This document shows, in pieces, positions 1 to 27,814 of a stretch of 64,000 bases of DNA. The notes below the pieces were generated by a model that was not told the origin of the DNA, made no database searches, and saw only the letters and a program-made list of their open reading frames with translations. The position numbers were made by a program, and so were the translations under genes. The stretch covers positions 24,404 through 88,403 of the forward strand of contig JAUSHZ010000007.1 in assembly GCA_030648255.1 (NCBI GenBank). Direction: 5' to 3'. How positions within the stretch are numbered: the first letter of the stretch is position 1; the number at the start of each line of letters is the position of its first letter. This DNA comes from a bacterium (GTDB taxonomy: Bacteria; Patescibacteriota; Minisyncoccia; Minisyncoccales; CG1-02-41-26).

Positions 1-617
1 TCCTCTGGTGTAATAACGCCATTTGTTTCAACCTCTAAAATCACTTTGTCAAAGTCAGTCCTTTTCCCAACCCGCATATTTTCAACTGTAGAGTTTACCT
101 TTCTCACTGGGGTAAAAATTGCATCCATTGGAAAAACTCCAACTTCAGACTTTCCACCTTCTCTTTTTTCTAAGGGTTGATAGCCAATGCCTTTTTCAAC
201 AACTGCGTCAATCTCTAATTCAGAAGTTGACTTTGTTAATGTGGCAATATGAGCCTCTGGATTTGCTAACTTTAATTGAGCAGTGAGCTTAAAGTCTTTT
301 GCCTTTACGTCTTTTTCACCTTTAATTTTTAAAGTTATTGTTTGAGGTTCGTCGCTGTAATTCTTAAAATTCAATTTTTTAAGGTTTAAAATAATCATTA
401 TCACATCTTCCATAACACCGCTTATTGCTGAAAACTCGTGAGGAGCTCCTTTTATTTTAACTTGAGTAATAGCTGCCCCCTCCAAAGAAGAAAGCAAAAC
501 TCTTCTCATAGCGTTTCCAATAGTAACTCCATAGCCGGGATAAAGGCCTTCTATTTCAAAAAAAGCGGTATTTCCTTCCTGAGTGCTTATTTTTGGTTTT
601 GATGGTAATGGAATCAT
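1..617 (-). CDS. rpoA: RNA polymerase alpha subunit, N-terminal part (3' end beyond window start)
   Basis: Not in ORF track (truncated). Manual minus-strand translation from ATG 615-617 gives MIPLPSKPKISTQEGNTAFFEIEGLYPGYGVTIGNAMRRVLLSSLEGAAITQVKI.., an alpha NTD. It follows rpsD as in alpha operons. Confidence 0.85.
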   Translation of the reverse strand, partial: MIPLPSKPKISTQEGNTAFFEIEGLYPGYGVTIGNAMRRVLLSSLEGAAITQVKIKGAPHEFSAISGVMEDVIMIILNLKKLNFKNYSDEPQTITLKIKGEKDVKAKDFKLTAQLKLANPEAHIATLTKSTSELEIDAVVEKGIGYQPLEKREGGKSEVGVFPMDAIFTPVRKVNSTVENMRVGKRTDFDKVILEVETNGVITPE

Positions 618-641
618 ATAGTTTTTAATTTAATTATTTTT

Positions 642-1277
642 TTAGCGAGAATAGAACTCAAAAATAGATGAAATATCAATATTATTAACGTCTTCTGCTG
701 TGGGCTCGGCCATAATTTTACCTTCCATTTTTTCTTTATCTAAATCCAGCCATTTTGGCTGTTGATAATTTTTTAAGGCAGAAGAAAGATTCTTAAAAAT
801 CACTTTTCCTTTTTTATTCTCCTTAAAAGAAATGGCTAATCCTTTTTTAGTAGCAAAAGATGATATATTAACTGGTTTTCCATTTACTAAAAAATAACCA
901 TGAGAAACCATCTGCTTTGCCTCTCTCCTTGATTTAGCAAAACCTAATCTAAAAACAACATTGTCTAGCCGTCTTTCCAATTCTTTTAACAAAAACAGGG
1001 TAGCATCGCCTCCTTGCCCTCTTTTTTTCAAAACAAATTTAACATGGTTTCTAAACTGGCGCTCTCCCAAACCATAGTAGTTTCTTAATTTTTGTTTTTC
1101 TTTTAATTGTTTCGCAAACTCCGAAAAAGAGCCGCTTCTTCTTTTCTTTTTAGGGCCTGGGGCATATGGCCTTCTAATAAAAGGGCAGGTGGGGGAAAAG
1201 CATTTCTCCCCCTTTAAAAAAGTTTTTTGGCCTAATCGCCTGCAAACCTTGCAATTTGTGATAGTTTTTTTCTGCAT
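642..1277 (-). CDS. rpsD: 30S ribosomal protein S4
   Basis: 211 aa; N-terminal Cys knuckle (CKVCRR..CFSPTC), YGLGERQFRN and S4 RNA-binding domain; operon position. Confidence 0.95.
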   Translation of the reverse strand: MQKKTITNCKVCRRLGQKTFLKGEKCFSPTCPFIRRPYAPGPKKKRRSGSFSEFAKQLKEKQKLRNYYGLGERQFRNHVKFVLKKRGQGGDATLFLLKELERRLDNVVFRLGFAKSRREAKQMVSHGYFLVNGKPVNISSFATKKGLAISFKENKKGKVIFKNLSSALKNYQQPKWLDLDKEKMEGKIMAEPTAEDVNNIDISSIFEFYSR

Positions 1278-1489
1278 GTTAGAAGCTGTGTGAATTTTTA
1301 AATTTAATGATTTAAAAATTCATTACAGATTCTTACACCCCGTTAAGTGCGAGCGATGAGCGAGCTACTTAACTGGGGTTTGTTTGTATTCTTATCCACC
1401 CCAGTGAAGTAAAATTTGAGTACAAATTCACTTCACGGGGTTAAGCGATTGTATTTGTTCAGCCTCGGCTTCGGCTTCGCAAACAATCG
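1278..1489 (-). repeat. Intercistronic structured element, copy 1 (modules E1 / M-A / S4)
   Basis: Fills rpsK stop (1490) to rpsD ATG (1277). mRNA sense ends GCTTCTAAC-ATG. Has AT palindrome tgaatttttaaat/atttaaaaattca, hairpins ccccgttaagt/acttaactgggg and ccccagtgaagt/acttcacgggg, and stop-proximal stem gcgattgt/acaatcgc. Confidence 0.9.
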
Positions 1490-1945
1490 CTAAACCCTTC
1501 TTGGTTTTCTTGGCCGACAGCCATTATGAGGAATTGGCGTTACGTCTCTTATTGATTCTATCTCCAAGCCTTGAGCGGCAATAGTTTTTAAAGCTGAATC
1601 TCTTCCGCCTCCAACCCCCTTAACAAAAACAGCAACTTCTTTAATTTTAAATTGTTCGCAAGCTAAAGCTACCGCTTGGGCAACTTTAGAGGCGGCAAAA
1701 GAAGTGCCTTTCTTTGTGCCCTTAAACCCAACATTTCCAGCAGACCTCCAAAATAAGACATTTCCTTTTTCATCAGCCAAGCTGACAATAGTATTGTTAT
1801 AGGTTGAAGAAATATAAATTCTGCCCTTTCTAAAAGAAGTTCTGGTAGAAGCAACATTCAAATCTTTTCCTAATTTCTTTTCAACTTTATCTGTTTCTTC
1901 AATAAGCTCTTTTTCTGTTTTTTGTATTACTCTTTTCTTTCCCAT
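1490..1945 (-). CDS. rpsK: 30S ribosomal protein S11
   Basis: S11 core (RIYISSTYNNTIVSLAD..GNVLFWRSAG..GFKGTKKGTSFAA). ORF-track N-terminus MAKPLHSLTNTN is repeat sequence, so start is set at the conserved TACTAAC-ATG (1943-1945). Confidence 0.93.
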   Translation of the reverse strand: MGKKRVIQKTEKELIEETDKVEKKLGKDLNVASTRTSFRKGRIYISSTYNNTIVSLADEKGNVLFWRSAGNVGFKGTKKGTSFAASKVAQAVALACEQFKIKEVAVFVKGVGGGRDSALKTIAAQGLEIESIRDVTPIPHNGCRPRKPRRV

Positions 1946-2136
1946 GTTAGTATTCGTTAATGAATGAAGTGGCTTTGCCACGAATGAATTTACGAAGACT
2001 TACACCCTGTGGAGTAGAAATTTGCTCTGCAAATTTCTGTTTTAAATTTTTAGTAAAAAATTTAAAACTACTCCACGGGGTAAATTCGTCGTAAGCTCTG
2101 GCTTCGCCTGCTGGCTTTCCCTCGCTAACGGCTCAT
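1946..2136 (-). repeat. Intercistronic structured element, copy 2 (E4 / M-B / S3-like)
   Basis: rpsM stop to rpsK ATG. Closing stem caccctgtggagtag/ctactccacggggta encloses two AT hairpins. Stop-proximal stem aaattcgtcgt/acggctcattt abuts the TAA. Confidence 0.9.
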
Positions 2137-2526
2137 TTACTTTGGCCCTGGGGCTGTTTTTCTTCCAGAACTTACAGTTCTCTTAACATTGCCCCTTACA
2201 GTTCTTGAATTCTTTTTTGTTTTTTGCCCTCTAACAGTCAAGCCCTTTATGTGCCTGGTTCCTCGCCAACACTTAATCTCTTTTAATCTTTTAATATGGG
2301 CCACGTGCTCTCTTCTTAAGTCTCCTTCAATCTTATAACTTGCATCAATAACCTCTTTTATCTTCATTGCTTCTTGCTCGGTTAAATCTTTAGCTTTTTT
2401 CTGTGGCTCTATGTTGCATTGCTTTAAAATTCTTAAAGCCAATGGCCTGCCAATGCCAAAAACATAAGTCAAAGAAATGGCTATTTGTTTATTATCTGGA
2501 ATTGTGATGCTTGCTATTCGTGGCAT
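2137..2526 (-). CDS. rpsM: 30S ribosomal protein S13
   Basis: MPRIASITIPDNKQIAISLTYVFGIG.. is a typical S13. The MKIHTASN prefix in the ORF track is repeat sequence; start at CTAAC-ATG (2524-2526). Confidence 0.94.
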   Translation of the reverse strand: MPRIASITIPDNKQIAISLTYVFGIGRPLALRILKQCNIEPQKKAKDLTEQEAMKIKEVIDASYKIEGDLRREHVAHIKRLKEIKCWRGTRHIKGLTVRGQKTKKNSRTVRGNVKRTVSSGRKTAPGPK

Positions 2527-2751
2527 GTTAGAAGCTGTGTGAATTTTCAAATTTAATGATTTGAAAATTCATTACAGATTCTTACACCCCGTTAAGTGCG
2601 AGCGATTAGCAAGCTACTTAACTGGGGTTTGTTTATATTTCTATCCACACCCCAGTGAAGTAGAATTTAATTTCATTAAATTCACTTCACGGGGTAAATT
2701 CCGCCAACCGCTCAAACTTCGGCTCATCGCCTCGTTTTCGCGGGGCGTCAT
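2527..2751 (-). repeat. Intercistronic structured element, copy 3 (E1 / M-A / S2)
   Basis: rpmJ stop to rpsM ATG. Same E1 and M-A hairpins as copy 1. S2 arm ..cttcggctcatcgcctcgttttcgcggggcgtcattta ends in the rpmJ stop codon. Confidence 0.9.
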
Positions 2752-2868
2752 TTATGCGCCTTGGCGCTGTTTGTGTTTTGGAGTTTTGCAAATAACATAA
2801 ACCCTCCCCTTTCTTCTGGCGATTTTACAATCCTTACATAATTTTTTTACTGATGGTTTAACCTTCAT
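2752..2868 (-). CDS. rpmJ: 50S ribosomal protein L36
   Basis: Missed by ORF track (38 aa). Manual translation [38 protein letters not shown]. It is flanked by two element copies. Confidence 0.92.
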
Positions 2869-3085
2869 GTTAGAAGCTGTGTGAATTTTTAAATTTAATG
2901 ATTTGAAAATTCATTACAGATTCTTACACCCCGTTAAGTGCGAGCGATTAGCAAGCTACTTAACTGGGGTTTGTTTGTATTTCTATCCACACCCCAGTGA
3001 AGTAGAATTTGAGTACAAATTCACTTCACGGGGTAAATTCCGCTTGCCAATCGCGCTTCGCCTGCTGGCTCGCACTCTTGGAGCG
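2869..3085 (-). repeat. Intercistronic structured element, copy 4 (E1 / M-A / S1)
   Basis: infA stop to rpmJ ATG. S1 arm aaattccgcttgccaatcgcgcttcgcctgctggctcgcactcttggagcgtcat + tta stop. Confidence 0.9.
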
Positions 3086-3304
3086 TCATTTAAGTCTATA
3101 AACTATTCTGCCTCTTTTATCATCAATAGAGGCCATTTCAACCAACACCTTATCGCCCAACAAAATTTTTATGCGATTAATTCTAAGCTTCCCGGCCAAA
3201 TGCGCCAAAACCTCGTTTCCATTTTCCAATTGAATTTTAAATAAAAGACTAGGCAAAGCCTCTACAACTTGGCCTCTTTCTCTTATTGTATTAATTTGTT
3301 TCAT
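3086..3304 (-). CDS. infA: Translation initiation factor IF-1
   Basis: 72 aa S1-like OB fold; GQVVEALPSLLFKIQLENGNEVLAHLAGKLR..ILLGDKVLVEMASID. Confidence 0.93.
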   Translation of the reverse strand: MKQINTIRERGQVVEALPSLLFKIQLENGNEVLAHLAGKLRINRIKILLGDKVLVEMASIDDKRGRIVYRLK

Positions 3305-3320
3305 CTCGTTACGATTGTCT

Positions 3321-3349
3321 AAAATAGCAAATTATTCAAAAAAGGTCAA
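3321..3349 (-). promoter_or_regulatory. Sigma-70-type promoter for infA-rpmJ-rpsM-rpsK-rpsD-rpoA
   Basis: Minus sense TTGACC - 17 nt - TATTTT, preceded by GGGG; about 15 nt upstream of infA. Confidence 0.5.
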
Positions 3350-3358
3350 CCCCTTTGG

Positions 3359-4738
3359 CTAGAAAACCATTTCTATCTTTATCTTATCTAGGCTTTTTGG
3401 CGCTCTTTTTATCCAAAAAGGCCAAAATTGCGTGTCCAGTCGTTCAATTTGGGGGTAGCTATTATTCAATAAAATCTCCATATCTTCTTTAGATTTTCCA
3501 GCTAAATCCGCAATTAAGGCTGTTTGGTCAATATCATTATAAAGCTTGGCATCTGTTTTTAAATTAAAAATCAAACTCCCTTTTTCCGTAATGCTGCCTT
3601 TTGGAACTACGCTTGTCGCTAAGCTTTGTTCGTATAATTTCTTTGAAGAAGATAGTTTTGTATCAATAAAGCTTTTGGCCATATCCTGCAAATCTGATCC
3701 CTTAAAAACAATTGTCTTAGCTTTTATTTTTGCATAACAATTAAATTCAGCGAGGTTGGCGCCAACAGCTTGAGAACAAGAGAACTCGGGCTCGCCATAG
3801 TCAACTGATTCTTGGTTAAAAGAAAATCCAGCGGTTGTTTGCTCCTTCAAGCCCGAAACAGCCATTTTTTTTAACTCCCTAATCAAGCTTTCTTGAGCAT
3901 TATCCATATCTCCTTGAGTTACTTGATCAACTTCTTTCTGACCCCCGCCGTCAATTTTTTCTCTTGATTCACCCCAAACATTATAGTATAAAGCTGTTCC
4001 TGTTAATCCTGGAATAGAAAACTTAGCAGGGGCTATATTATATTCCTCTCCCTCCTGATCAGCGACAACCTGAACCTCTGTAATGCTTGGGGTTAATTTT
4101 CCATTAAACAATGTGGCTTGGGGCAAAGAAATCTTATTTTTTGCCCGATAAACCTTTCCATCTTTTGATGATATAAATCTTGTTCCTGCTTTTAAGTTTA
4201 AGGGCATTGGGGGATTAATATTATTGTAAACAAATATAGCGCCCGTTGCCCCAGATTGTTCTGTTTCTTTTCCAGTTGACTTAAATGTTTCCCATTTCTC
4301 TACTTCTTTTTCAATTACATTTCCGGGAATAATCTTTTTTTCAAAATCGATTTGCGCTTGAGAAAAAGAAACTTGAATCTCGTCTTTAATTGTAATTGGC
4401 TCTAATAGCGGTTTCACGCTTATTTCTGCTTTTGCCTGCATCGTTAAATATAAAAAGGCTCCCCCTAAAAGCAAAATGGCTACACCAATAACTATGGGAA
4501 TTTTTAGAGCAAGTCTTGGTAAAGTAAAAGAAACTCGAATTTCTTTTTTTCCCTTGCCACGTCGGAGTTCCGCAGGAACGGAGGCGGGTCTTTCTTTTTT
4601 CACCTCCCCCTTCTTCATCCCCTTTCTTGTAGGTGATTTTTTTTGAGGCTTAGTTGAAGCTAAAACAATTGGAAATTGTTCCTCTGTTTCTTCTGCTTCT
4701 TCCTCATCTGGATTTGTTATATCAATAATTTGCTTCAT
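3359..4738 (-). CDS. Membrane-anchored hypothetical protein with large extracytoplasmic domain
   Basis: 459 aa; Lys/Glu-rich N-terminus and one TM helix (IPIVIGVAILLLGGAFLYL). Weak memory-based resemblance to baseplate-J-like proteins annotated in CPR genomes. Preceded by a short element copy. Confidence 0.6.
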   Translation of the reverse strand: MKQIIDITNPDEEEAEETEEQFPIVLASTKPQKKSPTRKGMKKGEVKKERPASVPAELRRGKGKKEIRVSFTLPRLALKIPIVIGVAILLLGGAFLYLTMQAKAEISVKPLLEPITIKDEIQVSFSQAQIDFEKKIIPGNVIEKEVEKWETFKSTGKETEQSGATGAIFVYNNINPPMPLNLKAGTRFISSKDGKVYRAKNKISLPQATLFNGKLTPSITEVQVVADQEGEEYNIAPAKFSIPGLTGTALYYNVWGESREKIDGGGQKEVDQVTQGDMDNAQESLIRELKKMAVSGLKEQTTAGFSFNQESVDYGEPEFSCSQAVGANLAEFNCYAKIKAKTIVFKGSDLQDMAKSFIDTKLSSSKKLYEQSLATSVVPKGSITEKGSLIFNLKTDAKLYNDIDQTALIADLAGKSKEDMEILLNNSYPQIERLDTQFWPFWIKRAPKSLDKIKIEMVF

Positions 4739-4866
4739 GTTAGAAATTCTTAATTGAGTGGCGAATTTATGAGCCGTGAAATTTAGAAGTTTTTAGTCCT
4801 CCGTAAATTCAAACTTCGCCTACTGACTCGTTTTCATTAACGGATTACTTATTCTACCACAAAAAT
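4739..4866 (-). repeat. Intercistronic structured element, copy 5 (short form: E3 / no M / S3-like)
   Basis: alaS stop to the ATG of the 459 aa gene. Ends AATTTCTAAC-ATG. E3 stem ttcttaatt/aatttagaa and S stem agtcctccgt/acggattact are present, but the middle domain is missing. Confidence 0.8.
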
Positions 4867-6615
4867 TTACTGCTGCAAAATCGCTTTAATTCGCCGAACG
4901 CCAGCTGAACTGGCTTCTTCTTTAATAATTTTAAATACGCCCAAAGTTTTGGTATTTTCAACATGAGGACCAGCGCAAATTTCTTTAGAGAACTCTCCTG
5001 CGGAATAAACTTTCACTTTTTCTGGATACTTGTGGCCAAAAACTCCTGTGGCCCCTTCATCAAATGCTTTTTGAGTTTCCATTTCACGGCAAACAACAGG
5101 CAACTCCTTTTTTATTTGCTCGTTAACTAAGTCCTCCACTTTTTTTATTTCTTCTGGGGTTAATTTTCTTTCAAAAGAAAAATCAAACCTTATTCTTTCA
5201 GAAGTAATATTGCTACCTTTTTGCTGAACATCCCCTCCCAAAACTTGCCTTAAAGCAGCCAGCATTAAATGAGTGGCTGTGTGGTATTTTGTGGTTTGTT
5301 CAGAATCATCAGCTAAGCCGGATTTAAACTGCCCAGCACTGGCTGTTCTAGACAACTCTTGATGCTTTTTTAATTCCTCTTGAAAACCTTTTTCGTCAAT
5401 TTCCTTGTCTTTCTCCTTGGCAATCTCTCTTGTTATTTCTAAAGGAAATCCGTAAGTTTGATAAAGATTAAAAACCTCTTCCCCAGAAATAATTGGCATA
5501 TTTATTTTTTCAAATTCTTTTAATCCCCTGTCTAAACAAGTTAAAAATCTTTCTTCTTCTTTTTGTAGTTCATTTAAAATAAACTCCTGATTTTCTTTCA
5601 GTTCTGGGTAAACATTTTCATACATAGCAATAATAACTTTAGCAATCTCGCCCGTAAAAGCGCTCTCAATACCCAACAGCTTGCCGTATCTTATTGCCCG
5701 CCTTATTAATCTCCGCAACACATATCCTCTTTCTGTGTTTGACGGAACAAGCCCATCGGCTAATATAAAAACGCTGGCTTTTATATGGTCTGCAATAATG
5801 CGAAAAGATTTTGTATTTTCCTCATATTGCTTTCCCGAAATTTCTGAAATTCTATTTATTATCGGAGTAAACAGCTCTGTTTCATAAACATTACTTTTTC
5901 CTTGCAAAACCATTGTAGTTCTCTCCAGGCCCATGCCAGTGTCCACATTTTTCTGCGATAATTCTTCAAACTTTCCGTCTGCAGTTTTGTTATACTGCAT
6001 AAAAACATTGTTCCAAATCTCCACCCATTTTTTATCGCTTGGGTCAAATTTTTCAGGAACTTCCCCCTCTCCAACCCAATAAAACATTTCTGTGTCTGGG
6101 CCGCAGGGCCCTGTACTTCCTGCTGGGCCCCACCAATTATCCTCACGGCCCAAATAAGCAATCCGCTCTGGCTTAACCCCCAAACCTTGCCAAAGATTAA
6201 AGGCCCCCTCGTCTTTTGGTATATTATTTTCTGTTTCACCTTCAAAAACCGTAAAAGCTAACTTTTCCAAAGGAATATTTAATTCTTTAGTTAAAAATTC
6301 AAAGCTCCATTCAATGGCCTCTTTTTTAAAATAATCCCCCAAACTCCAATTACCAAGCATTTCAAAAAATGTTCCATGGGTGTTGTCCCCCACATCATCA
6401 ATATCACCCGTTCTAATACATTTTTGGCTATTGCAAAGCCGTTTACCTAGGGGATGGTTTTCCCCAAGCAAATAAGGCACCAATGGGTGCATACCTGCTG
6501 TGGTAAATAAAACTGTTGGGTCGTTTTCTGGAATTAAAGGGGCAGATGGTATTCTTTTGTGTCCCTTGTTCTCAAAAAACTTTAAATATTTTTCTCGTAT
6601 TTCTTTAGCTGTCAT
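4867..6615 (-). CDS. alaS: Alanyl-tRNA synthetase, short form
   Basis: 582 aa; class II AlaRS N-terminus (FTTAGMHP, WNNVFMQY) and editing-domain HTATHLM plus CAGPHV. Lacks the C-terminal domain of ~870 aa enzymes. Confidence 0.9.
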   Translation of the reverse strand: MTAKEIREKYLKFFENKGHKRIPSAPLIPENDPTVLFTTAGMHPLVPYLLGENHPLGKRLCNSQKCIRTGDIDDVGDNTHGTFFEMLGNWSLGDYFKKEAIEWSFEFLTKELNIPLEKLAFTVFEGETENNIPKDEGAFNLWQGLGVKPERIAYLGREDNWWGPAGSTGPCGPDTEMFYWVGEGEVPEKFDPSDKKWVEIWNNVFMQYNKTADGKFEELSQKNVDTGMGLERTTMVLQGKSNVYETELFTPIINRISEISGKQYEENTKSFRIIADHIKASVFILADGLVPSNTERGYVLRRLIRRAIRYGKLLGIESAFTGEIAKVIIAMYENVYPELKENQEFILNELQKEEERFLTCLDRGLKEFEKINMPIISGEEVFNLYQTYGFPLEITREIAKEKDKEIDEKGFQEELKKHQELSRTASAGQFKSGLADDSEQTTKYHTATHLMLAALRQVLGGDVQQKGSNITSERIRFDFSFERKLTPEEIKKVEDLVNEQIKKELPVVCREMETQKAFDEGATGVFGHKYPEKVKVYSAGEFSKEICAGPHVENTKTLGVFKIIKEEASSAGVRRIKAILQQ

Positions 6616-6621
6616 ATATTT

Positions 6622-7377
6622 CTAAATATTTTTTACCATAGCAGTAAATTCTTTTATATTCAATGAAGCGCCACCAACTAAGAGGCCATCAATTGCTTCA
6701 TTTTCTAAATATTTATTTGCGTTGTCTGACCCAACGCTTCCACCGTATAAAACTCTTACTTTCTCTTTGGCTTTTCTGCCGTAAATTTCAGCTATTAATT
6801 TTTTTATATATAAAGCCATTGTTAAGGCGTCGTCGGGAGCACAGGTTAATCCTTGGTTTGTGCTAATTGCCCACAAGGGCTCATAGGCTATAACAAGCTC
6901 TCCTACTTGTTGTTTTTTAATAGCTTTTAAGCTTTCCCTTAGCTTTTTCTCAACAATTTGAAATGTTTTGCTTTGGTTTCTTTCTTCTAATGTCTCGCCA
7001 ATGCAAACAACTGGTGTTAAACCCGTGCTTAACACGGCTTTTACTTTTTTGGCAGTCATCTCATTTGTTTCTCCCATTACCATTACTCTTTCAGAATGAC
7101 CTAAAATAACATACTTAACTCCTAAATTTTTTAGCATTGTTGGCGAAACCTCGCCCGTGAATGCTCCTTGATTTTCCCAAAAACAATCTTGCGATCCAAT
7201 TTTTACTGCCCCAACTCCAAAAACTTTTTTTGCCTCTGCTAAATAAACAAAGGGGGGGCAAACCACAACTTCTATTTTATTGTTTTTTATCCCCGCTCTC
7301 AATCCAACCATCATCTTTTGCGCCTCTTTTAGGGTTGTTGGATTACACTTCCAATTTGCAATAATTAGCTTTTTCAT
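6622..7377 (-). CDS. tpiA: Triosephosphate isomerase
   Basis: 251 aa; ANWKCN, GHSERV, AYEPLWAI and YGGSV motifs. Confidence 0.92.
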   Translation of the reverse strand: MKKLIIANWKCNPTTLKEAQKMMVGLRAGIKNNKIEVVVCPPFVYLAEAKKVFGVGAVKIGSQDCFWENQGAFTGEVSPTMLKNLGVKYVILGHSERVMVMGETNEMTAKKVKAVLSTGLTPVVCIGETLEERNQSKTFQIVEKKLRESLKAIKKQQVGELVIAYEPLWAISTNQGLTCAPDDALTMALYIKKLIAEIYGRKAKEKVRVLYGGSVGSDNANKYLENEAIDGLLVGGASLNIKEFTAMVKNI

Positions 7378-7381
7378 AGAT

Positions 7382-8368: not shown

Positions 8369-8438
8369 ATTTACTTATTATAGCAAAATCTTTAAATAAA
8401 CAAAAAGGCAGGGTTAAATTCCCCCGCCAAATCATAGA

Positions 8439-8573: not shown

Positions 8574-8584
8574 TTGAAACCTCC

Positions 8585-10001: not shown

Positions 10002-10023
10002 ATTATTTAATGATAACAGAATT

Positions 10024-12221: not shown

Positions 12222-12409
12222 GTTAGTAATTCTTAATTGAACGGCGAATTTATGAGCTGTGAAATTTAGAATTTCTTACACCCCGTGGAGTAGAAATTTG
12301 CTCTGCAAATTTCTATTTTAAATTTTTTACTAAAAATTTAAAATTACTCCACAGGGTAAATTCCGCTTGCCAATCGCGCTTCGATTACTCAGCACTCTTG
12401 GAGCGTCAT
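12222..12409 (-). repeat. Intercistronic structured element, copy 6 (E3 / M-B / S1 variant)
   Basis: rplO stop to secY ATG. Ends ATTACTAAC-ATG. Closing stem caccccgtggagtag/ttactccacagggta. Confidence 0.9.
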
Positions 12410-12841
12410 TTACTTTACTGTTCCTCCTGCTTTTTCTATTTTAACTTGAGCAGCTTTTGAAACCAAGCAATCCTCAATAGTAAGTGATTTAGTAAGTTCG
12501 CCATTTCCTAAAATTTTTACCAATGGAACTTTGCCTATAATTTTTCTAATTAATTTTTTATCAACTAAAACTTCCGGGGTAATTTTGTCTCCTTTTTCAA
12601 AATTCTTTTCTAAAACATTAAGATTTATAGAGGCTGTTTCTTCTCCTCTTAATTCCTGCCTGTATCCTCTTATTTTTGGATATCTTTTAATAATCTCTCT
12701 CATAAAGGGTTGCATTTTTCTCCCAGCCCTTGATTTTTGGCCTTTGCAACCCTTCCCACAGTAAGTTCCCTTCTTGCCTCCTCTGCCAATTCTTTTTCTA
12801 TCTTTTGTCTTATTATTTGGTTGTATTTCGTGAATTTGCAT
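12410..12841 (-). CDS. rplO: 50S ribosomal protein L15
   Basis: 143 aa; KRIGRGGKKGTYCGKGCKGQKSRAG block. Confidence 0.93.
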   Translation of the reverse strand: MQIHEIQPNNKTKDRKRIGRGGKKGTYCGKGCKGQKSRAGRKMQPFMREIIKRYPKIRGYRQELRGEETASINLNVLEKNFEKGDKITPEVLVDKKLIRKIIGKVPLVKILGNGELTKSLTIEDCLVSKAAQVKIEKAGGTVK

Positions 12842-13007
12842 GTTAGTAATTCTTAATTGAACTGCGAACGATTAGTGAGCTGTGAAATTTAGAAGTACTT
12901 ACACCCTGTGGAGTAGAAATTTGCTCTGCAAATTTCTGTTTTAAATTTTTAGTAAAAAATTTAAAACTACTCCACGGGGTAAATTCCGCCTTCCACTCAA
13001 ACTTCGG
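12842..13007 (-). repeat. Intercistronic structured element, copy 7 (E3 / M-B / S2; S2 continues into the rpsE 3' end to about 13040)
   Basis: rpsE stop to rplO ATG. S2 homology (..cttcggctaatcgcctcgttttcgtggggcgtcattta) extends 33 nt into the rpsE coding sequence. Confidence 0.9.
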
Positions 13008-13526
13008 CTAATCGCCTCGTTTTCGTGGGGCGTCATTTAACTGTTGTAAGGCCGCTACTGTTGCCCGGGCGATATTTAATTTATTTCTTGATCTTGACAA
13101 TAACTTTGATGATATATTCCTAATTCCAGCTAAACTGCAAATAACTCTTACCTGGCCGCCAGCCACCAACCCCCTACCTTTTGCCTGAGGCCTTAACAAA
13201 ACCCTTGCTGGGCCATACTTTGCTGTAACCTCATGGGGAATTGTTTCCTCAAACATTGGAACAGAAATTAAATTCTTCTTGGCCAACCGAGTTGATTTTT
13301 CAACAGCAATTGCCACATCAGGCCCCTTGGCCACACCTAATCCAATTTTTCCCTTTTTATTGCCAACCACCACAACTGCCCTAAACCTCATTTGCTTTCC
13401 TCCCTTTGTTACTCTTGTAACTCTGGCTAAATCTAAAACCACCGAGTCGAACTCATCTTTCGGTTTTGCTGGAAATTGACCTCTTCTTTCTCTATTAAAT
13501 TTTCCTTGTTGTTGCTGTTGTTCCAT
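13008..13526 (-). CDS. rpsE: 30S ribosomal protein S5
   Basis: 172 aa; VTRVTKGGKQMRFRAVVVVGN..GLGVAKG and S5 C-terminal domain. The last ~10 codons ([10 protein letters not shown]) are encoded by element sequence. Confidence 0.93.
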   Translation of the reverse strand: MEQQQQQGKFNRERRGQFPAKPKDEFDSVVLDLARVTRVTKGGKQMRFRAVVVVGNKKGKIGLGVAKGPDVAIAVEKSTRLAKKNLISVPMFEETIPHEVTAKYGPARVLLRPQAKGRGLVAGGQVRVICSLAGIRNISSKLLSRSRNKLNIARATVAALQQLNDAPRKRGD

Positions 13527-13720
13527 GTTAGTAATTCTTAATTGAACGGCGAACGATTAGTGAGCTGTGAAGTTTAGAAGTACTTACACCCTGTGGAGTA
13601 GAAATTTGCTCTGCAAATTTCTGTTTTAAATTTTTTACTAAAAATTTAAAACTACTCCACGGGGTAAATTCCGCTTGCCAATCGTGCCTCACCTGCTGGC
13701 TCGCACTCTTGGAGCGTCAT
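13527..13720 (-). repeat. Intercistronic structured element, copy 8 (E3 / M-B / S1)
   Basis: rplR stop to rpsE ATG; same modules as copies 6/7, with S1 arm ending ggagcgtcat+tta. Confidence 0.9.
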
Positions 13721-14065
13721 TTAAAATTGTAGCCCACCTTCTCTCGCTCCTTCAGCCAACGCTTTTATTCTACCATGATATTTAAAGCCTCCTCTATCAA
13801 AAACAACTTTTTTAATCTTTTTTTCTATTGCTAATTTAGCAATTTCCTTACCAACATTAAAAGCCTTTTCTAATTTTTTCAGTTTTTTCTCTTTTGAATC
13901 GTTTGCTGAAATAATAGTTTTGCCTTTTGTGTCGTCAATTATTTGAGCATAGATATGCTGGTTTGATTTAAATACGCAAAGCCGAGGCGCGGTTGGTGTG
14001 CCAATGACTTTTGCCCTGATTCGGCTGTGTCTTCTTGTTCTTTTTTGTTGTTTTGTCTGTTGCAT
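13721..14065 (-). CDS. rplR: 50S ribosomal protein L18
   Basis: 114 aa; [42 protein letters not shown]. Confidence 0.93.
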
Positions 14066-14258
14066 GTTAGTAGTCGTTAATGAATGAGTGGCGATTAGCC
14101 ACGAGTGAATTTACGAATTCTTACACCCTGTGGAGTAGAAATTTGCTCTGCAAATTTCTGTTTCAAATTTTTAGCAAAAAATTTGAAACTACACCACGGG
14201 GTAAGTCCTCCGTAAGCTCTGGCTTCGGCTAATCGCCTTGCCATCGCTAACGGATTAC
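14066..14258 (-). repeat. Intercistronic structured element, copy 9 (E4 / M-B / S3)
   Basis: rplF stop to rplR ATG. E4 apex ggcgattagcc (14090-14100) is the exact reverse complement of S3 apex ggctaatcgcc (14227-14237). Confidence 0.9.
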
Positions 14259-14819
14259 TTATTTTCCAGCTTTCTTGCCCTCTTTCTTGCGGACAATTTC
14301 ACCAAAATATCTAACGCCCTTGCCTTTGTATGGCTCTGGCTTTCTTAAAGCTCTTATTTTTGCTGCAAACTGGCCAACCTGTTGCTTGTCAAAACCAAAA
14401 ATATTTATAAATTGTTTTTCTATTTTTATAGACAAACCCCCTGGAATCTCCATAAAAATAGGGTGAGAAAAACCCAAGTCCAATCTTATTTTCGATTCTC
14501 CCTCCATAGCAGCCTTGTATCCAACTCCCCTAAGCTCTAATTTCTTTTCAAATCCAACTGAGACGCCATGAACATGGTTCAATAATAAAGCAGTGGTTAA
14601 CCCCCAGAGAGCAGGAATTTCTTTGCTCTCTTTTTCCTGTCTGCCGACAGGCAGGGCTGGCTTTACAACTAAAATATTACCTTGTTGTTCCACAACAATA
14701 CCAACAGGAATTTCCTGTTTTATCTCTCCCTTAGGCCCTTTAAATAAAACATTATCTTTTTCAAGAATAACTGTTACGCCTTGGGGTATTTCTATTGGTT
14801 TTTTTCCTATTCTTGACAT
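14259..14819 (-). CDS. rplF: 50S ribosomal protein L6
   Basis: MSRIGKKPIEIPQGVTV.. The MKTHTISN prefix in the ORF track is repeat sequence; start at CTAAC-ATG (14817-14819). Confidence 0.93.
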   Translation of the reverse strand: MSRIGKKPIEIPQGVTVILEKDNVLFKGPKGEIKQEIPVGIVVEQQGNILVVKPALPVGRQEKESKEIPALWGLTTALLLNHVHGVSVGFEKKLELRGVGYKAAMEGESKIRLDLGFSHPIFMEIPGGLSIKIEKQFINIFGFDKQQVGQFAAKIRALRKPEPYKGKGVRYFGEIVRKKEGKKAGK

Positions 14820-15021
14820 GTTAGAAATTGTGTGAGTTTTCAAGCTATAATCTTTTTTATGGCTTGAAAACTCATTACAAGTTCTTACACCCTGTGGAGT
14901 AGAAATTTGCTCCGCAAATTTCTGTTTTAAATTTTTTACTAAAAATTTAAAACTACTCCACGGGGTAAGGTATCCGTAAGCTCGGGCTTCGCCTGCTGGC
15001 TCGCCCTCGCTAACGGCTACC
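14820..15021 (-). repeat. Intercistronic structured element, copy 10 (E2 / M-B / S3)
   Basis: rpsH stop to rplF ATG. E2 hairpin gagttttcaagc..gcttgaaaactc. S3 stem aaggtatccgt/acggctacctt carries compensatory changes relative to copy 9. Confidence 0.9.
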
Positions 15022-15411
15022 TTACCACACTTCCACCATTAATTCACCTCCGACTTTATCTTTTCTGGCTTGCTTATCTGTTAATAAACCATTGGTGGTT
15101 GAAACAATAGATAAGCCATAGCCACTTCTTACCTTTGAAATCTCGTCTGCTTTTTTATAAATTCTTTGCCCTGGCTTTGAAATCCTTTTAAACCCAGAGA
15201 CGGCTGGCATCTTTTCATTATATTTTAACTGTATTTTTATAATTTGAAACGGCTTTTTCCCTTTTTTCTTGCAATCCAAAATAAGCCCCTCTGCTTTTAA
15301 AATTTCAGCAATTGAGTATCTTAGTTTTGAAAAAGGAACATCGGTTGTTTTATGGAAAACAACTTGAGCGTTCCTTATTCTATTAAACATGTCTGTTATT
15401 GGATCGGTCAT
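15022..15411 (-). CDS. rpsH: 30S ribosomal protein S8
   Basis: MTDPITDMFNRIRNAQ.. is a typical S8. Start after CTTCTAAT-ATG (15409-15411). Confidence 0.93.
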   Translation of the reverse strand: MTDPITDMFNRIRNAQVVFHKTTDVPFSKLRYSIAEILKAEGLILDCKKKGKKPFQIIKIQLKYNEKMPAVSGFKRISKPGQRIYKKADEISKVRSGYGLSIVSTTNGLLTDKQARKDKVGGELMVEVW

Positions 15412-15612
15412 ATTAGAAGTTGTGTGAGTTTTCAAGCTATAATTTTTTTTATGGCTTGAAAACTCATTACAAATTCTTATACCCCGTGGAGTAGAAATTT
15501 GCTCTGCAAATTTCTGTTTTAAATTTTTTACTAAAAATTTAAAACTACTCCACAGGGTAAGTCCTCCGTAAGCTCTGGCTCGGCTGTTGCCTCGCCATAG
15601 CTAACGGATTAC
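15412..15612 (-). repeat. Intercistronic structured element, copy 11 (E2 / M-B / S3)
   Basis: rpsN stop to rpsH ATG. Only copy ending CTAAT-ATG instead of CTAAC-ATG. Confidence 0.9.
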
Positions 15613-15798: not shown

Positions 15799-15974
15799 GT
15801 TAGTGATTCTTAATTGAACGGCGAGCGATTAGCGAGCTGTGAAATTTAGAATGACTTACACCCCGTTAAGTGCGAGCGATTAGCGAGCTACTTAACTGGG
15901 GTTTCGTTGTATTCTTACCCCACCCCAGTGAAGTAGAATTTGAGTACAAATTCACTTCACGGGGTAAGGCTCTG
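15799..15974 (-). repeat. Intercistronic structured element, copy 12 (E3 / M-A / S5)
   Basis: rplE stop to rpsN ATG. Ends ATCACTAAC-ATG. The motif cgagcgattagcgagc occurs in both the E3 and M-A loops. Confidence 0.9.
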
Positions 15975-16961: not shown

Positions 16962-17177
16962 GTTAGAAATTGTGTGAGTTTTCAAGCTATAATCTTTTTT
17001 ATGGCTTGAAAACTCATTACAAGTTCTTACACCCTGTTAAGTGCGAGCGATGAGCGAGCTACTTAACTGGGGTTTGTTTATATTATTCTCATACCCCAGT
17101 GAAGTAGAATTTGATTACAAATTCACTTCACGGGGTTAAGCGATTGTAATGCTCGGCTATCGCCTCGCAGACAATCG
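16962..17177 (-). repeat. Intercistronic structured element, copy 13 (E2 / M-A / S4)
   Basis: rplN stop to rplX ATG. Combines the E2 hairpin of copies 10/11/15 with the M-A and S4 modules of copy 1. Confidence 0.9.
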
Positions 17178-18375: not shown

Positions 18376-18566
18376 GTTAGAAGCTGTGTGAATTTTCAAA
18401 TTTAATGATTTGAAAATTCATTACAGATTCTTACACCCCGTGGAGTAGAAATTTGCTCTGCAAATTTCTGTTTTAAATTTTTAGTAAAAAATTTAAAACT
18501 ACTCCACAGGGTAAATTCCGCTTGCCAATCACGCTCGCCTGCTGGCTCGCGCTCTTGGAGCGTCAT
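18376..18566 (-). repeat. Intercistronic structured element, copy 14 (E1 / M-B / S1)
   Basis: rpsC stop to rplP ATG; E1 AT palindrome combined with the M-B three-way junction. Confidence 0.9.
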
Positions 18567-19226
18567 TTAATTAAAGCGTTCTCCCTTATACATCCAAACC
18601 TTAACGCCAATAACCCCATAAGTGCAGTGTGCCTCGCATGAGCCATATTCAACTATGGCTCTTATTGTTTGAAGCGGAAGTCGCCCATCTTTTAACCATT
18701 CTCTTCTGGAAATTTCAACTCCATTTAACCTACCTGATACCTCAACCTTCACGCCTTTTATTTCTTTTTGCTCAGCTGTTTTGCTTATTGCCATTTTCAA
18801 AACTCTTCTAAACGGCACTTGCTTTTCGATTTGGCCAGCCATCCATTGAGCTGTTAAGCTGGCTGAAAGCCATGGGTTTCTTATTTCAATAATTTCTATT
18901 TTAATGCTGTTTTTATCTGTTTTTATCTTCCCCTTTACTTTTGATATTGCTTTTTCAATTCCCATTTTCAAATCCTCAACTCCTTTGCCCCCCCTGCCGA
19001 TAATCAAAGCGGGTCTGGAAGTTTTAATAATAATTTTTAAGGCAGCGGATGTTCTCTCTATCTCTACTTCCTGAATAATACCCGCGGGTAGCTTCTTAGT
19101 GATAAACTGCCTAATTATAAAATCCTCCTCTAAGTAAACAGGAAAATTGTTCTTATAAAAGCCTCTTGAAAGCCAGTCTTTCATTTCTCTTATCTTAAAA
19201 GATTTTGGGTTGACTTTATGGCTCAT
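18567..19226 (-). CDS. rpsC: 30S ribosomal protein S3
   Basis: 219 aa; KH domain (IIGRGGKGVEDLK) and S3 C-terminal domain. Confidence 0.95.
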   Translation of the reverse strand: MSHKVNPKSFKIREMKDWLSRGFYKNNFPVYLEEDFIIRQFITKKLPAGIIQEVEIERTSAALKIIIKTSRPALIIGRGGKGVEDLKMGIEKAISKVKGKIKTDKNSIKIEIIEIRNPWLSASLTAQWMAGQIEKQVPFRRVLKMAISKTAEQKEIKGVKVEVSGRLNGVEISRREWLKDGRLPLQTIRAIVEYGSCEAHCTYGVIGVKVWMYKGERFN

Positions 19227-19576
19227 ACTTTTGATTTATCTTGTTTAAAAATATCTAAATTTAAAGTAATATTAGAAGTTTTCTTTTCTATTCTACAAGC
19301 CCTGCCCCTAGCTCTGGCCCTCCATCTTTTAAGGGTTCTGCCCTCATCAACTTTAATTAAGGAAATAAACAAATCTTTTTCTTCTAATTTAAAATTGTTT
19401 TTAGCGTTGGCCACTGCTGAATCCAAAAGCTTTTTTAAAGGCAAGGCTCCTTTTTTAATGCAAAATCCTAAAGATGCTTGGGCTTTCCCAGCAGATTTTC
19501 CTCTAACCATATCAGCCACCAAGCGAACTTTTCTGGGTGATATTCTTAAATTGTTTAATTTTGCTATAACTTGCAT
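19223..19576 (-). CDS. rplV: 50S ribosomal protein L22
   Basis: MQVIAKLNNLRISPRKVRLVADMVRGK.. The ORF-track N-terminal 18 aa are repeat sequence. Confidence 0.93.
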   Translation of the reverse strand: MQVIAKLNNLRISPRKVRLVADMVRGKSAGKAQASLGFCIKKGALPLKKLLDSAVANAKNNFKLEEKDLFISLIKVDEGRTLKRWRARARGRACRIEKKTSNITLNLDIFKQDKSKV

Positions 19577-19776
19577 GTTAGAAATTGTGTGAGTTTTCAA
19601 GCTATATTTCCTTATGGCTTGAAAACTCATTACAAGTTCTTACACCCCGTGGAGTAGAAATTTGCTCCGCAAATTTCTGTTTTAAATTTTTAGTAAAAAA
19701 TTTAAAACTACTCCACAGGGTAAATTCCGCTTGCCAATCGCGCTTCGCCTGCTGGCTCGCGCTCTTGGAGCGTCAT
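19577..19776 (-). repeat. Intercistronic structured element, copy 15 (E2 / M-B / S1)
   Basis: rpsS stop to rplV ATG. Confidence 0.9.
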
Positions 19777-22641: not shown

Positions 22642-22941
22642 GTTAGAAGCTGTGTGAATTTTTAAATTTAATGATTTAAAAATTCATTACAGATTCTTAC
22701 ACCCTGTGAAGTAAAATTTGAGTACAAATTTTAATTTTAAATTTTTTACTAAAAATTTAAAATTACTTCACGGGGTTAATAATCCGTAAGCTCAAGCTTC
22801 GCCTGCTGGCTCGCTCTCGCTAACGAATTATTAAAAACACGAGGCATTAACTCCCCGCATTTTTGTTAAAAACTCAAGGGTTAAATTCTTCCCACTTTCA
22901 AGGGTTAAACTAATTAAGTTTTACCTTGAACTCTATATTAA
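22642..22941 (-). repeat. Intercistronic structured element, copy 16 (E1 / hybrid M / S3-like, about 22642-22838) plus a unique ~100 nt spacer
   Basis: rpsJ stop to rplC ATG. Closing stem caccctgtgaagtaa/ttacttcacggggtt and S stem ttaataatccgt/acgaattattaa. The spacer 22839-22941 holds two copies of caagggttaaa. Confidence 0.85.
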
Positions 22942-27550: not shown

Positions 27551-27814
27551 GTTAGTAATCGTTAATGAATGAGTGGCGATTAGCCACGAGTGAATTTACG
27601 AGGACTTACACCCTGTGAAGTAAGATTTGAGGTCTCTTCCAAAAAGTGTATTCTCTTAAACTTTTAACTATTTTTCTCTCGCATCAATTGTTAATAATCG
27701 TACCCTCAAATCTTAATTTTAAATTTTTTACTAAAAATTTAAAATTACTTCACGGGGTAAATTCCGCCAACCGCTCAAACTTCGGCTCATCGCCTCGTTT
27801 TTGCTGGGCGTCAT
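27551..27814 (-). repeat. Intercistronic structured element, copy 17 (E4 / hybrid M with ~85 nt extra arm / S2)
   Basis: rpsL stop to rpsG ATG. Extra arm closed by aagatttgagg/ccctcaaatctt. The S2 arm ends gggcgtcat+tta. Confidence 0.88.

What the first reader, a model, noticed from the sequence alone, without database searches (positions are those of the whole stretch)
1332..1445. The type-A middle domain can adopt two mutually exclusive, nearly equivalent folds
In type A the sequence reads cacCCCCG-TTAAGT..ACTTAA-CTGGGG..CCCCAG-TGAAGT..ACTTCA-CGGGGt. Fold 1 is two long hairpins, ccccgttaagt/acttaactgggg and ccccagtgaagt/acttcacgggg, each with a single-nucleotide bulge. Fold 2 is a four-way junction. 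Its outer stem is CCCCG/CGGGG. Its three hairpins are TTAAGT/ACTTAA, CTGGGG/CCCCAG and TGAAGT/ACTTCA, with no bulge and no unpaired junction nucleotide. The same arrangement is preserved in copies 1, 3, 4, 12 and 13. Preserved dual pairing is typical of RNA conformational switches. At the DNA level it is typical of branch-migratable cruciforms.
Basis: seen in the sequence. Interest (0 to 1): 0.6.

Follow-up and report, generated by a model that had tools for sequence, protein, structure and literature searches.

The report
Palindromic core of GIY-YIG-derived repeat
The two-fold hairpin region is real, but it is the gene-less palindromic core of a mobile-DNA-like repeat, related to a small GIY-YIG nuclease cassette, that fills 16 spacers between ribosomal-protein operon genes (plus one truncated copy nearby) in this ultra-small (Patescibacteria) bacterium; the double folding looks like a by-product, not a regulatory switch.

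Summary
Observation confirmed. All five type-A copies carry four arms that pair either as two bulged hairpins or as a perfect four-way junction. Model energies differ by -0.8 to +2.8 kcal/mol of about 40, depending on whether coaxial stacking is counted.

The switch reading is not supported. The four arms are copies of one 11-bp inverted repeat (IR), so dual pairing is automatic. The five copies are near-identical paralogues, and ten type-A-like copies from four genomes show no covariation that separates the registers. L102 copies prefer a third register.

The region is the centre of a roughly 200-nt modular element: 5' hairpin module, IR core, 3' hairpin module ending CTAAC just before ATG. 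It fills 16 spacers of the ribosomal-protein operon on the minus strand, plus one copy lacking the core. Close relatives (RpsM 91-96% identical) lack the elements or keep only end remnants. Longer family members carry an 85-89 aa Slx1-like GIY-YIG nuclease ORF inside the same IR. Window copy 27551-27814 keeps a decayed piece of that ORF.

Best reading: a gene-less, MITE-like derivative of a GIY-YIG mobile cassette that is co-transcribed and dispensable. I found no published description of this family.

The parts
1278..1489 (-). Complete element filling the rpsK|rpsD spacer from stop to start. In mRNA sense it is T3 hairpin module, type-A core, L1 hairpin module, CTAAC, ATG.
1338..1440 (-). Type-A core, the subject of the finding. 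In sense orientation the arms are a = rc(1430-1440), a' = rc(1399-1410), b = rc(1367-1378), b' = rc(1338-1348).
1441..1489 (-). T3 module: a 5' hairpin (CGATTGT...ACAATCG) directly after the rpsK stop codon.
1278..1337 (-). L1 module: a 3' AT-rich hairpin flanked by GTGTAAG and CTAAC, abutting the rpsD ATG.
2527..2751 (-). Element in the rpmJ|rpsM spacer, type-A core at 2587-2694.
2869..3085 (-). Element in the infA|rpmJ spacer, type-A core at 2929-3033. infA stops at the TGA inside the element's 5' end.
15799..15974 (-). Element in the rplE|rpsN spacer, type-A core at 15861-15964, with a truncated 5' module.
16965..17177 (-). Element in the rplN|rplX spacer, type-A core at 17032-17135, with a C.A mismatch in the proximal stem.
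1946..2136 (-). Element in rpsM|rpsK with a three-way-junction (type-B) core at 2005-2080 and T2 + L2 modules that are inverted homologues of each other.
12222..15612 (-). Six type-B elements, in the spacers rplO|secY 12222-12409, rpsE|rplO 12842-13007, rplR|rpsE 13527-13720, rplF|rplR 14066-14258, rpsH|rplF 14823-15021 and rpsN|rpsH 15415-15612.
18379..19776 (-). Two type-B elements: rpsC|rplP 18379-18566 and rpsS|rplV 19577-19776.
22642..22835 (-). Element in rpsJ|rplC, core at 22702-22775. It corresponds arm for arm to the ORF-bearing core with the hairpin loops deleted.
27551..27814 (-). Element in rpsL|rpsG. Its core (27611-27757) retains decayed fragments of the GIY-YIG ORF: a 24-nt exact match to the ENLKLRFE-coding stretch and 75% identity over 139 nt to the ORF 3' end plus L2.
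4739..4866 (-). Partial element (T2 + L3 modules) without any core, upstream of ORF 3359-4738.

Best explanation
Window 1338-1440 is the palindromic core of a non-coding, MITE-like derivative of a mobile cassette. In full-length form the cassette carries an 85-89 aa Slx1-like GIY-YIG nuclease gene bracketed by an 11-bp inverted repeat (IR).

Shown:
- A roughly 200-nt modular element occupies 16 intercistronic spacers of the ribosomal-protein operon, plus one core-less copy. It consists of a 5' T hairpin, the IR core, a 3' L hairpin and CTAAC. Every copy runs in the direction of the genes.
- The family occurs in many related Patescibacteria, in ribosomal and non-ribosomal operons.
- The closest relatives lack it or keep only its 3' end.
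- Longer members hold the GIY-YIG ORF inside the same IR and inner hairpin arms.
- One window copy retains ORF debris.

Inferred:
- Gene-less cores arose by deletion of the ORF-containing hairpin loops.
- Type A is a tandem fusion of two such cores. It therefore has four interchangeable IR arms and folds equally well as two hairpins or as a four-way junction.
- The dual fold is a structural by-product and not a regulated switch.
- The elements are co-transcribed and tolerated because only this orientation lacks terminator-like hairpin/T-run sites.
For: - Copies, architecture and orientation.
- No Rfam family matches.
- Family members in about 40 metagenome loci and in L202, always co-oriented between genes.
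- Patchy presence. L001/L081 (RpsH 98%, RpsM 96%), L204-207 (RpsM 95%) and L203 (91%) have compact spacers. L001 keeps 'attaagaattactaaa' and 'gaattactaaa', which match the L3 terminus.
- DNA-type palindrome behaviour. G.U pairs number 40 (sense) versus 57 (antisense) among about 2000 stacked pairs. Loops occur flipped (TACT/AGTA) and inner hairpins occur in both orders. T2 resembles the reverse complement of L2 (37/61 identical, z = 4.8). G..A loops are mirrored between T and L modules.
- GIY-YIG ORF inside the core: PF01541, E = 2.9e-15. The best PDB hits are the UPF0213 proteins 1zg2 and 1ywl, which PMC1564403 places in the bacterial Slx1 family.
- The ORF is bracketed by the same IR and modules in L114, L143, L208 (two copies), L210, L215 and L217. 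Compensatory changes link the non-coding 5' arm to the coding 3' arm: GTGAAGT/ACTTCAC, GTTAAGT/ACTTAAC, GTTAAAT/ATTTAAC, GTCAAAT/ATTTGAC.
- Window copy 27551-27814 aligns to the ORF-bearing elements at E = 3e-21.
- At least 3299 homologues; the listed top 120 are 70-99% identical to the query. Two copies occur in one contig, and one insertion splits a 23S_rRNA_IVP gene.
- The arm table shows no register-specific covariation.
- Terminator-like hits in the elements lie only on the antisense strand.
Against: - No transposition event, empty/filled allele pair or target-site duplication could be demonstrated. TAA flanks both ends, but empty sites in relatives are not informative.
- GIY-YIG enzymes are not known transposases. 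An 85-89 aa domain lacks a DNA-binding module, so how it would mobilise the element is unknown.
- Terminal inverted repeats are significant only for T2/L2 combinations, not for the focal copy, which is T3/L1.
- No intact GIY-YIG gene lies in this window.
- All 17 window copies end exactly at the ATG, and T modules have GNRA-like loops and tandem G.A motifs on the sense strand. These features would also fit a host-used RNA element.
- No expression data exist.
Confidence: 0.7

Rival explanations
1. Domesticated intercistronic RNA cassette. The transcribed element is used by the host. The T hairpin would protect the 3' end of the upstream cistron. The IR core would be an RNase III-type processing site. 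The L hairpin plus CTAAC would form the 5' leader of the downstream cistron. This would turn the polycistronic mRNA into individually stable units. It is compatible with a mobile-DNA origin.
For: - Strict co-orientation with genes in all roughly 45 copies seen.
- All window copies run exactly from stop codon to CTAAC-ATG.
- Four unrelated L hairpins share the same flanks.
- T modules have covarying helices, tandem G.A motifs and G..A/GNRA-like loops on the sense strand, 22 versus 0.
- No terminator-like sites on the sense strand.
- Long, nearly perfect stems are plausible RNase III substrates (established knowledge of Correia elements and T7 intercistronic sites).
Against: - The closest relatives run the same operon with 1-20 nt spacers, so the elements are dispensable.
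- There is no G.U strand bias in the stems.
- The G..A loop bias is mirrored in the L modules (0 versus 10), as expected from inverted duplication and not from RNA selection.
- One copy lacks the core (4739-4866).
- No transcript data are available.
Confidence: 0.2
2. RNA conformational switch. The type-A core toggles between a two-hairpin fold and a four-way-junction fold, in response to a ligand, protein or Mg2+, and so regulates the downstream ribosomal-protein gene.
For: - The folds are isoenergetic within model error.
- The MFE differs between copies in their full context.
- The symmetric extra T/A pair stabilises the four-way-junction inner helix and is kept in 9 of 10 type-A-like copies.
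Against: - No register-specific covariation.
- The L102 and L202 variants break the third hairpin or prefer a third register.
- Both folds leave the L module and start codon unchanged.
- Five different genes carry near-identical copies, while 11 other full copies in the window have a non-bistable core.
- The elements are absent from close relatives.
- No Rfam match.
Confidence: 0.05
3. DNA-level substrate. The IR and its type-A duplication extrude as hairpin, cruciform or four-way-junction DNA. That structure is what the element-encoded Slx1-like GIY-YIG nuclease recognises and cuts, driving copying, inversion and deletion of the element.
For: - The IR brackets the nuclease gene in every ORF-bearing copy examined, and the two arms co-vary even though one arm is coding.
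- The nuclease belongs to the minimal bacterial Slx1-like group. Eukaryotic Slx1 is a structure-specific nuclease (established knowledge; PMC1564403).
- Loop flips and segment inversions are seen within the family.
- Perfect junctions have no unpaired bases.
Against: - There is no biochemical data for this protein family.
- The IR could instead act in the RNA, for example in translational control of the nuclease or in excision from host transcripts.
- With DNA parameters the four-way junction is 3.4-5.1 kcal/mol less stable than two hairpins.
- Most copies lack the type-A duplication.
Confidence: 0.25

Closest known systems
Bacterial MITEs that are co-transcribed with genes (Correia/NEMIS of Neisseria, RUP and BOX of Streptococcus pneumoniae, ERIC/IRU of enterobacteria)
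   Same: Size of 100-300 bp, non-coding, multi-copy and intergenic. They are strongly self-complementary and modular or mosaic (BOX, BIME). They are transcribed with neighbouring genes. Presence is patchy between close relatives, and longer coding relatives share the same ends.
   Different: The coding relative here carries a GIY-YIG nuclease and not a DDE transposase. TIRs are detectable only for T2/L2 module pairs. A target duplication is unproven. Every copy is in one orientation and confined to stop-to-start spacers. Sixteen copies sit in one ribosomal-protein operon.
REP/BIME and REPIN-RAYT systems
   Same: Palindromic extragenic repeats in mosaic combinations, associated with a single-domain nuclease-type gene that is itself flanked by the repeats.
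   Different: REPs are 20-40 bp with a GTAG or CGTC tag, and their partner is a Y1 HUH transposase (RAYT). Here the unit is about 200 nt and has no such tag. The partner is a GIY-YIG domain inside the palindrome, not beside it.
Free-standing GIY-YIG homing endonuclease genes (phage T4 Seg proteins)
   Same: A GIY-YIG gene inserted between conserved, co-oriented genes. It relies on host transcription and has a patchy distribution.
   Different: Seg and I-TevI enzymes are 200-250 aa and have DNA-binding domains. This ORF is the bare 85-89 aa catalytic domain of the Slx1/UPF0213 type. It is bracketed by nested inverted repeats and has spawned many gene-less copies at different sites.
Mobile hairpin elements of organelle genomes (double-hairpin elements of Allomyces, yeast GC clusters, sponge repetitive hairpin-forming elements, Volvox palindromes)
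   Same: Short palindromic or double-hairpin repeats that colonise intergenic spacers of compact genomes. They show concerted evolution and frequent inversion and deletion.
   Different: The host is bacterial. The three-module architecture is larger. There is a clear link to a specific nuclease gene.
Bistable RNAs and riboswitch expression platforms
   Same: Two mutually exclusive folds of similar predicted energy.
   Different: There is no conserved ligand pocket. No covariation supports both registers. There is no coupling to a terminator or start site.

Membership tests
MITE (miniature inverted-repeat transposable element) | Small, non-coding, multi-copy | tested here: met
   There are 16 full copies of 166-264 nt and one partial copy. 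No consistent ORF was found.
MITE (miniature inverted-repeat transposable element) | Terminal inverted repeats | tested here: inconclusive
   T2 versus the reverse complement of L2 gives 37/61 identity with z = 4.8, and 35/66 with z = 3.2. Other module pairs, including the focal T3/L1 pair, give z < 2.
MITE (miniature inverted-repeat transposable element) | Target-site duplication | tested here: inconclusive
   TAA lies on both flanks (the stop codon or TATAATAA on the left, C-TAA-C on the right). Empty sites in relatives do not confirm a duplication.
MITE (miniature inverted-repeat transposable element) | Longer autonomous relative with the same ends that encodes the mobilising enzyme | tested here: inconclusive
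   Members of about 417-430 nt share the T and L modules and the IR and encode a GIY-YIG domain. That this enzyme mobilises the element is not shown.
REP/REPIN-RAYT | 20-40 bp palindrome with a GTAG/CGTC tag, and a Y1 (HUH) RAYT gene flanked by REPs | tested here: not met
   The unit is about 200 nt. The associated ORF matches PF01541 GIY-YIG and not a Y1 transposase.
GIY-YIG homing endonuclease (I-TevI/Seg type) | GIY-YIG catalytic domain | tested here: met
   PF01541 at 56.8 bits against a cut-off of 22.6 for the L114 ORF. The window holds only a decayed remnant.
GIY-YIG homing endonuclease (I-TevI/Seg type) | Linked DNA-binding domain that recognises a long target | tested here: not met
   The ORF is 85-89 aa and consists of the catalytic domain only. 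TIGR01453 scores 21 bits against a cut-off of 56.
Bacterial Slx1-like / UPF0213 minimal GIY-YIG nucleases | Stand-alone domain of about 90-100 aa, most similar to 1zg2 and 1ywl | tested here: met
   The only PDB hits are 1zg2 (E = 1.6e-5) and 1ywl (E = 1.8e-3). PMC1564403 assigns these two to the Slx1 family.
Riboswitch / RNA conformational switch | Both alternative pairings supported by covariation in homologues | tested here: not met
   In 10 type-A-like copies from 4 genomes, no change discriminates the registers. The third hairpin decays, and L102 prefers a third register.
Riboswitch / RNA conformational switch | Alternative folds differ in exposing a terminator, SD or start codon | tested here: not met
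   Both folds pair the same arms. The start codon lies beyond a separate L hairpin.
Any Rfam family | Covariance-model score at or above gathering | tested here: not met
   No hit on the elements at gathering threshold. Only sub-threshold chance hits at E <= 5.

The most novel reading that the evidence does not exclude
The family is a previously unrecognised kind of bacterial mobile element. A minimal Slx1-like GIY-YIG nuclease, encoded inside nested inverted repeats, would recognise hairpin, cruciform or four-way-junction DNA formed by its own repeats. It would thereby copy the cassette and its gene-less derivatives into TAA-containing intercistronic sites. In effect this would be an IS/MITE system run by a structure-specific GIY-YIG enzyme. 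The type-A core would be a single-strand four-way-junction form of its substrate.
Probability: 0.2. Interest if true: 0.8.

Novelty: new variant of a known kind. Interest (0 to 1): 0.5.

Why it matters
The ribosomal-protein operon is among the most conserved and tightly packed loci in bacteria. Here 16 of its gene junctions each carry 166-264 nt of structured repeat DNA, while close relatives have junctions of 1-20 nt.

This shows that a streamlined Patescibacteria genome can tolerate massive colonisation of its most highly expressed operon.

It links thousands of small, unexplained 'GIY-YIG nuclease family' genes in these bacteria to a defined inverted-repeat cassette and its gene-less offspring.

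It offers a concrete substrate for testing what bacterial Slx1-like nucleases do: an 11-bp IR, three-way junctions and a natural four-way junction.

For the scan itself, the lesson is that 'preserved dual pairing' among paralogous repeat copies is not evidence of an RNA switch.

Tried and rejected
- Known RNA family: none matched.
- Strand of folding from G.U versus A.C counts: no bias, 40 versus 57. Total fold energies of the two strands are about equal.
- Sense-strand GNRA-like loops as proof of an RNA function: weakened because the L modules show the mirror bias, as expected from inverted duplication.
- A bridging upstream ORF that would couple translation across the element: no consistent frame or stop position.
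- GGGGUG upstream of the L hairpin as a split Shine-Dalgarno: this stretch varies in the L202 copies.
- Type-A inner hairpin as a leftover of the central ORF: local alignments are not significant, with p = 0.04-0.9.
- Target-site duplication from empty sites in relatives: not resolvable.
- An autonomous copy over 700 nt with a classical transposase between the element ends: none in any locus held.
- Viral contigs: no type-A match.
- Assembly artefact: rejected. Copies differ, are flanked by unique genes, and the family recurs in many independent assemblies.
- Literature: no description of this element family was found. PMC11270868 notes only that GIY-YIG genes occur in non-intron insertions of CPR rRNA genes.

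Full report
**What is at the coordinates**

The + strand at 1338-1440 reads CCCCGTTAAGT ... ACTTAACTGGGG ... CCCCAGTGAAGT ... The same four arms recur at 2587-2694, 2929-3033, 15861-15964 and 17032-17135. These are copies 1, 3, 4, 12 and 13 of a repeat with 17 members in the first 28 kb of the window.

The genes here are on the minus strand. They form the ribosomal-protein superoperon: rpsL, rpsG, fusA, tuf, rpsJ, rplC ... rplO, secY ... infA, rpmJ, rpsM, rpsK, rpsD, rpoA. The assignments rest on the translations and on Pfam-annotated homologous loci. From here on I describe the element in mRNA sense.

**Anatomy of the repeat**

Each copy fills a spacer from stop codon to start codon (166-264 nt). 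It has three parts.

- A GC-rich irregular 5' hairpin, the T module, in at least four types.
- A core closed by the inverted repeat (IR) CCCYGTKRAGT ... ACTYMACRGGG, followed by TGTAAG.
- A 3' hairpin, the L module, in four types. It ends in CTAAC directly before the ATG.

Eleven cores are perfect three-way junctions: the IR stem plus two inner hairpins. Five are type A. One copy (4739-4866) has T and L modules but no core. Rfam has nothing on these elements.

**Check of the two folds**

I name the arms a, a', b and b' in sense order.

- Fold 1 pairs a with a' and b with b'. It has 22 pairs and two 1-nt bulges.
- Fold 2 is a four-way junction with 5+6+6+6 perfect pairs and no free junction base.

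For the isolated RNA domain the energy gap depends on the model:

| Model | Result |
|---|---|
| ViennaRNA defaults | Fold 1 favoured by 1.8-2.8 kcal/mol |
| No dangles | Fold 1 favoured by 3.3-5.1 kcal/mol |
| Coaxial stacking allowed (dangles=3) | within +/-0.8 kcal/mol |
| DNA parameters | Fold 1 favoured by 3.4-5.1 kcal/mol |

In the full spacer the MFE is the junction for rpmJ|rpsM and the two hairpins for three other copies. The observation and 'nearly equivalent' are confirmed.

**Why this is not evidence for a switch**

All four arms are variants of one IR that closes every core in the family. Two tandem hairpins with the same stem can always exchange partners.

The five copies are near-identical paralogues, so their agreement reflects recent common ancestry.

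I found type-A-like cores in three other genomes: L106/L157 (arms identical), L102 (two copies) and L202 (three variants). Across these ten copies no substitution separates the registers.

- The a-a' distal stem never varies.
- The b-b' distal stem decays in L102 and L202.
- The one double change, CCCTG/CAGGG in L202, fits both registers.
- In L102 the b' arm matches a perfectly. The MFE is then a third register, an outer 11-bp stem plus an inner a'-b hairpin, about 9 kcal/mol better than either proposed fold.

Neither fold touches the L module or the start codon.

One point does favour the junction's inner helix. The extra T in a' and the extra A in b are bulges in Fold 1 but pair with each other in CTGGGGT/ACCCCAG. 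This symmetric double insertion is kept in 9 of 10 copies. The flanks of a' and b also look like the normal 3' and 5' borders of a core (GGGGTGT......ACCCC). Type A is therefore most simply a tandem fusion of two cores (inference).

**The elements are lineage-specific and dispensable**

The organism is a Patescibacteria bacterium of the Paceibacteria/'Pacebacteria' group. Presence in relatives is patchy:

| Relative | Identity to the window | State |
|---|---|---|
| L001/L081 | RpsH 98%, RpsM 96%; coding DNA 77-88% identical; colinear | spacers of 1-60 nt where the window has elements |
| L204-207 | RpsM 95% | one end remnant (L204), otherwise none |
| L203 | RpsM 91% | no elements |
| L202 | RpsM 91% | elements present |
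| L102, L085, L153, L190 | RpsM 85%, RpsD 89%, RpsE 86% and RpsH 62%, respectively | elements present |

Two L001 spacers, 'attaagaattactaaa' and 'gaattactaaa', match the 3' terminus of the L3 module. L001 has therefore probably lost elements by deletion.

**The family is wider than this operon**

A metagenome scan returned about 40 loci with true members. Some are in ribosomal operons. Others lie between two-component-system genes (L105, L185), between glycogen genes (L137), or in front of a lexA-like gene (L114).

In all roughly 45 copies I could orient, the element runs in the direction of the flanking gene or genes. Its 5' end follows a TAA, and its 3' end is CTAAC placed 0-11 nt before the ATG.

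**Signs of DNA-level palindrome dynamics**

- Stems are about 98% Watson-Crick, and G.U pairs show no strand bias (40 sense versus 57 antisense).
- Hairpin loops occur as reverse-complement pairs (TACT/AGTA), and the two inner hairpins occur in both orders.
- T2 is an inverted homologue of L2 (37/61 identical, z = 4.8). The canonical element is thus a near-palindrome of about 190 bp with TAA on both flanks.
- G..A apical loops dominate T modules on the sense strand (22 versus 0). The mirror holds for L modules (0 versus 10). This is what inverted duplication predicts.
- Terminator-like hairpin/T-run matches in the elements lie only on the antisense strand. This gives a simple selective reason for the single orientation (inference).

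**The link to a nuclease gene**

Family members of about 417-430 nt (L083, L114, L122, L163; decayed in L143 and L148) carry an 89-aa ORF inside the core. It is a GIY-YIG catalytic domain (PF01541, E = 2.9e-15). Its only PDB relatives are the UPF0213 proteins 1zg2 and 1ywl. PMC1564403 classifies these as minimal bacterial Slx1-family nucleases.

The ORF is interwoven with the structure.

- The 5' arm of the IR lies upstream of the ATG, and the 3' arm encodes the C-terminal Y-L/F-T-G.
- The arms of both inner hairpins also flank or lie in coding sequence (ENLKL, RFE, LKSY).

Gene-less cores such as 22702-22775 correspond arm for arm to the ORF-bearing core with the loops deleted.

The same arrangement holds in L208 (two tandem copies in the L202 genome, with T2/L2 and T2/L3 modules), in L210, and in L217. 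It also holds in L215, where the cassette splits a 23S_rRNA_IVP gene. The non-coding and coding arms co-vary: GTGAAGT/ACTTCAC, GTTAAGT/ACTTAAC, GTTAAAT/ATTTAAC, GTCAAAT/ATTTGAC.

Window copy 27551-27814 retains a 24-nt exact match to the ENLKLRFE-coding stretch. It also has 75% identity over 139 nt to the ORF 3' end plus L2 (E = 3e-21).

The protein family is very large: at least 3299 hits, and the listed top 120 are 70-99% identical to the query, across hosts whose RpsM is 61-70% identical to the window's over most of the listed hits. This suggests horizontal spread (inference).

**Conclusion and rivals**

The best reading (about 0.7) is that the finding is the core of a gene-less, MITE-like derivative of a GIY-YIG cassette, and that its bistability is a by-product of repeated IR arms.

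- Mobility itself is not shown. I found no empty/filled allele pair and no provable target duplication. GIY-YIG enzymes are not known transposases.
- A host-used processing or stability cassette remains possible (about 0.2) and does not exclude a mobile origin.
- A true RNA switch is unlikely (about 0.05).
- The most novel reading still open (0.2 as stated in full; about 0.25 for its core, the DNA-substrate rival) is that the Slx1-like nuclease acts on hairpin or junction DNA formed by these repeats.

I found no published description of this element family.

Noticed in passing
window 48983-49080 (+): Rfam DUF3800-V RNA match at 41.9 bits, above the gathering score of 37.4. It lies among minus-strand ORFs.
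   Followed up: no
L001/L081 spacers rpsJ|rplC, rplR|rpsE, rpmJ|rpsM, tpiA|alaS: The closest relative lacks the window's elements. It has its own GC-rich hairpin repeat of about 40 nt (ccccacccctcggctttcgggccgaggagtgggg and variants) in four spacers of the same gene cluster, three in the ribosomal-protein operon and one at tpiA|alaS.
   Followed up: partly
window 22836-22941 (-): The upstream part of the rpsJ|rplC spacer is not part of the element. It is conserved with L001 and includes a terminator-like gcggggag...ctcgtgttttt hairpin. It may be a native leader or attenuator.
   Followed up: no
window 24806-24898 (-), fusA|o89 spacer: Short tandem units: ccgaaatccgaaatccgaaa, then cggaattctggtttcggaattctggtttc (TRF 24813-24843, period 14).
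   Followed up: no
window 28739-28939: Four imperfect 51-nt tandem repeats inside ORF 28367-29317 (316 aa, minus strand), so the protein is repetitive.
   Followed up: no
window 3086-3088 and 3082-3085: infA ends at the TGA that lies within the element's usual 5' start (TAA-)ATGACGC. The element therefore supplies the stop codon of infA.
   Followed up: partly
L215 518-1100 (contig Ga0079223_10000313; its protein cluster is named Fermentimonas sp. by NCBI): An IR-bracketed GIY-YIG cassette without T or L modules sits inside a 23S_rRNA_IVP (PF05635) gene and splits it. This looks like an insertion event.
   Followed up: partly
L208 2400-3320 (GCA_028718785.1, same genome as L202): Two nearly identical GIY-YIG elements lie in tandem, 498 nt apart start to start, separated by a possible ~44-codon reading frame that the contig's gene calls do not include. 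Both are co-oriented with the neighbouring genes.
   Followed up: partly
window 1-20000, + strand: Terminator-like hairpin plus T-run matches number 47 against 18 expected. Most lie inside the elements, and those lie only on the strand antisense to the genes.
   Followed up: partly
L001 secY|adk spacer (528 nt): It contains tggtgcggaggccggcgggatcgaaccgc, which resembles the reverse complement of a tRNA or tmRNA 3' end. The window's corresponding spacers differ.
   Followed up: no
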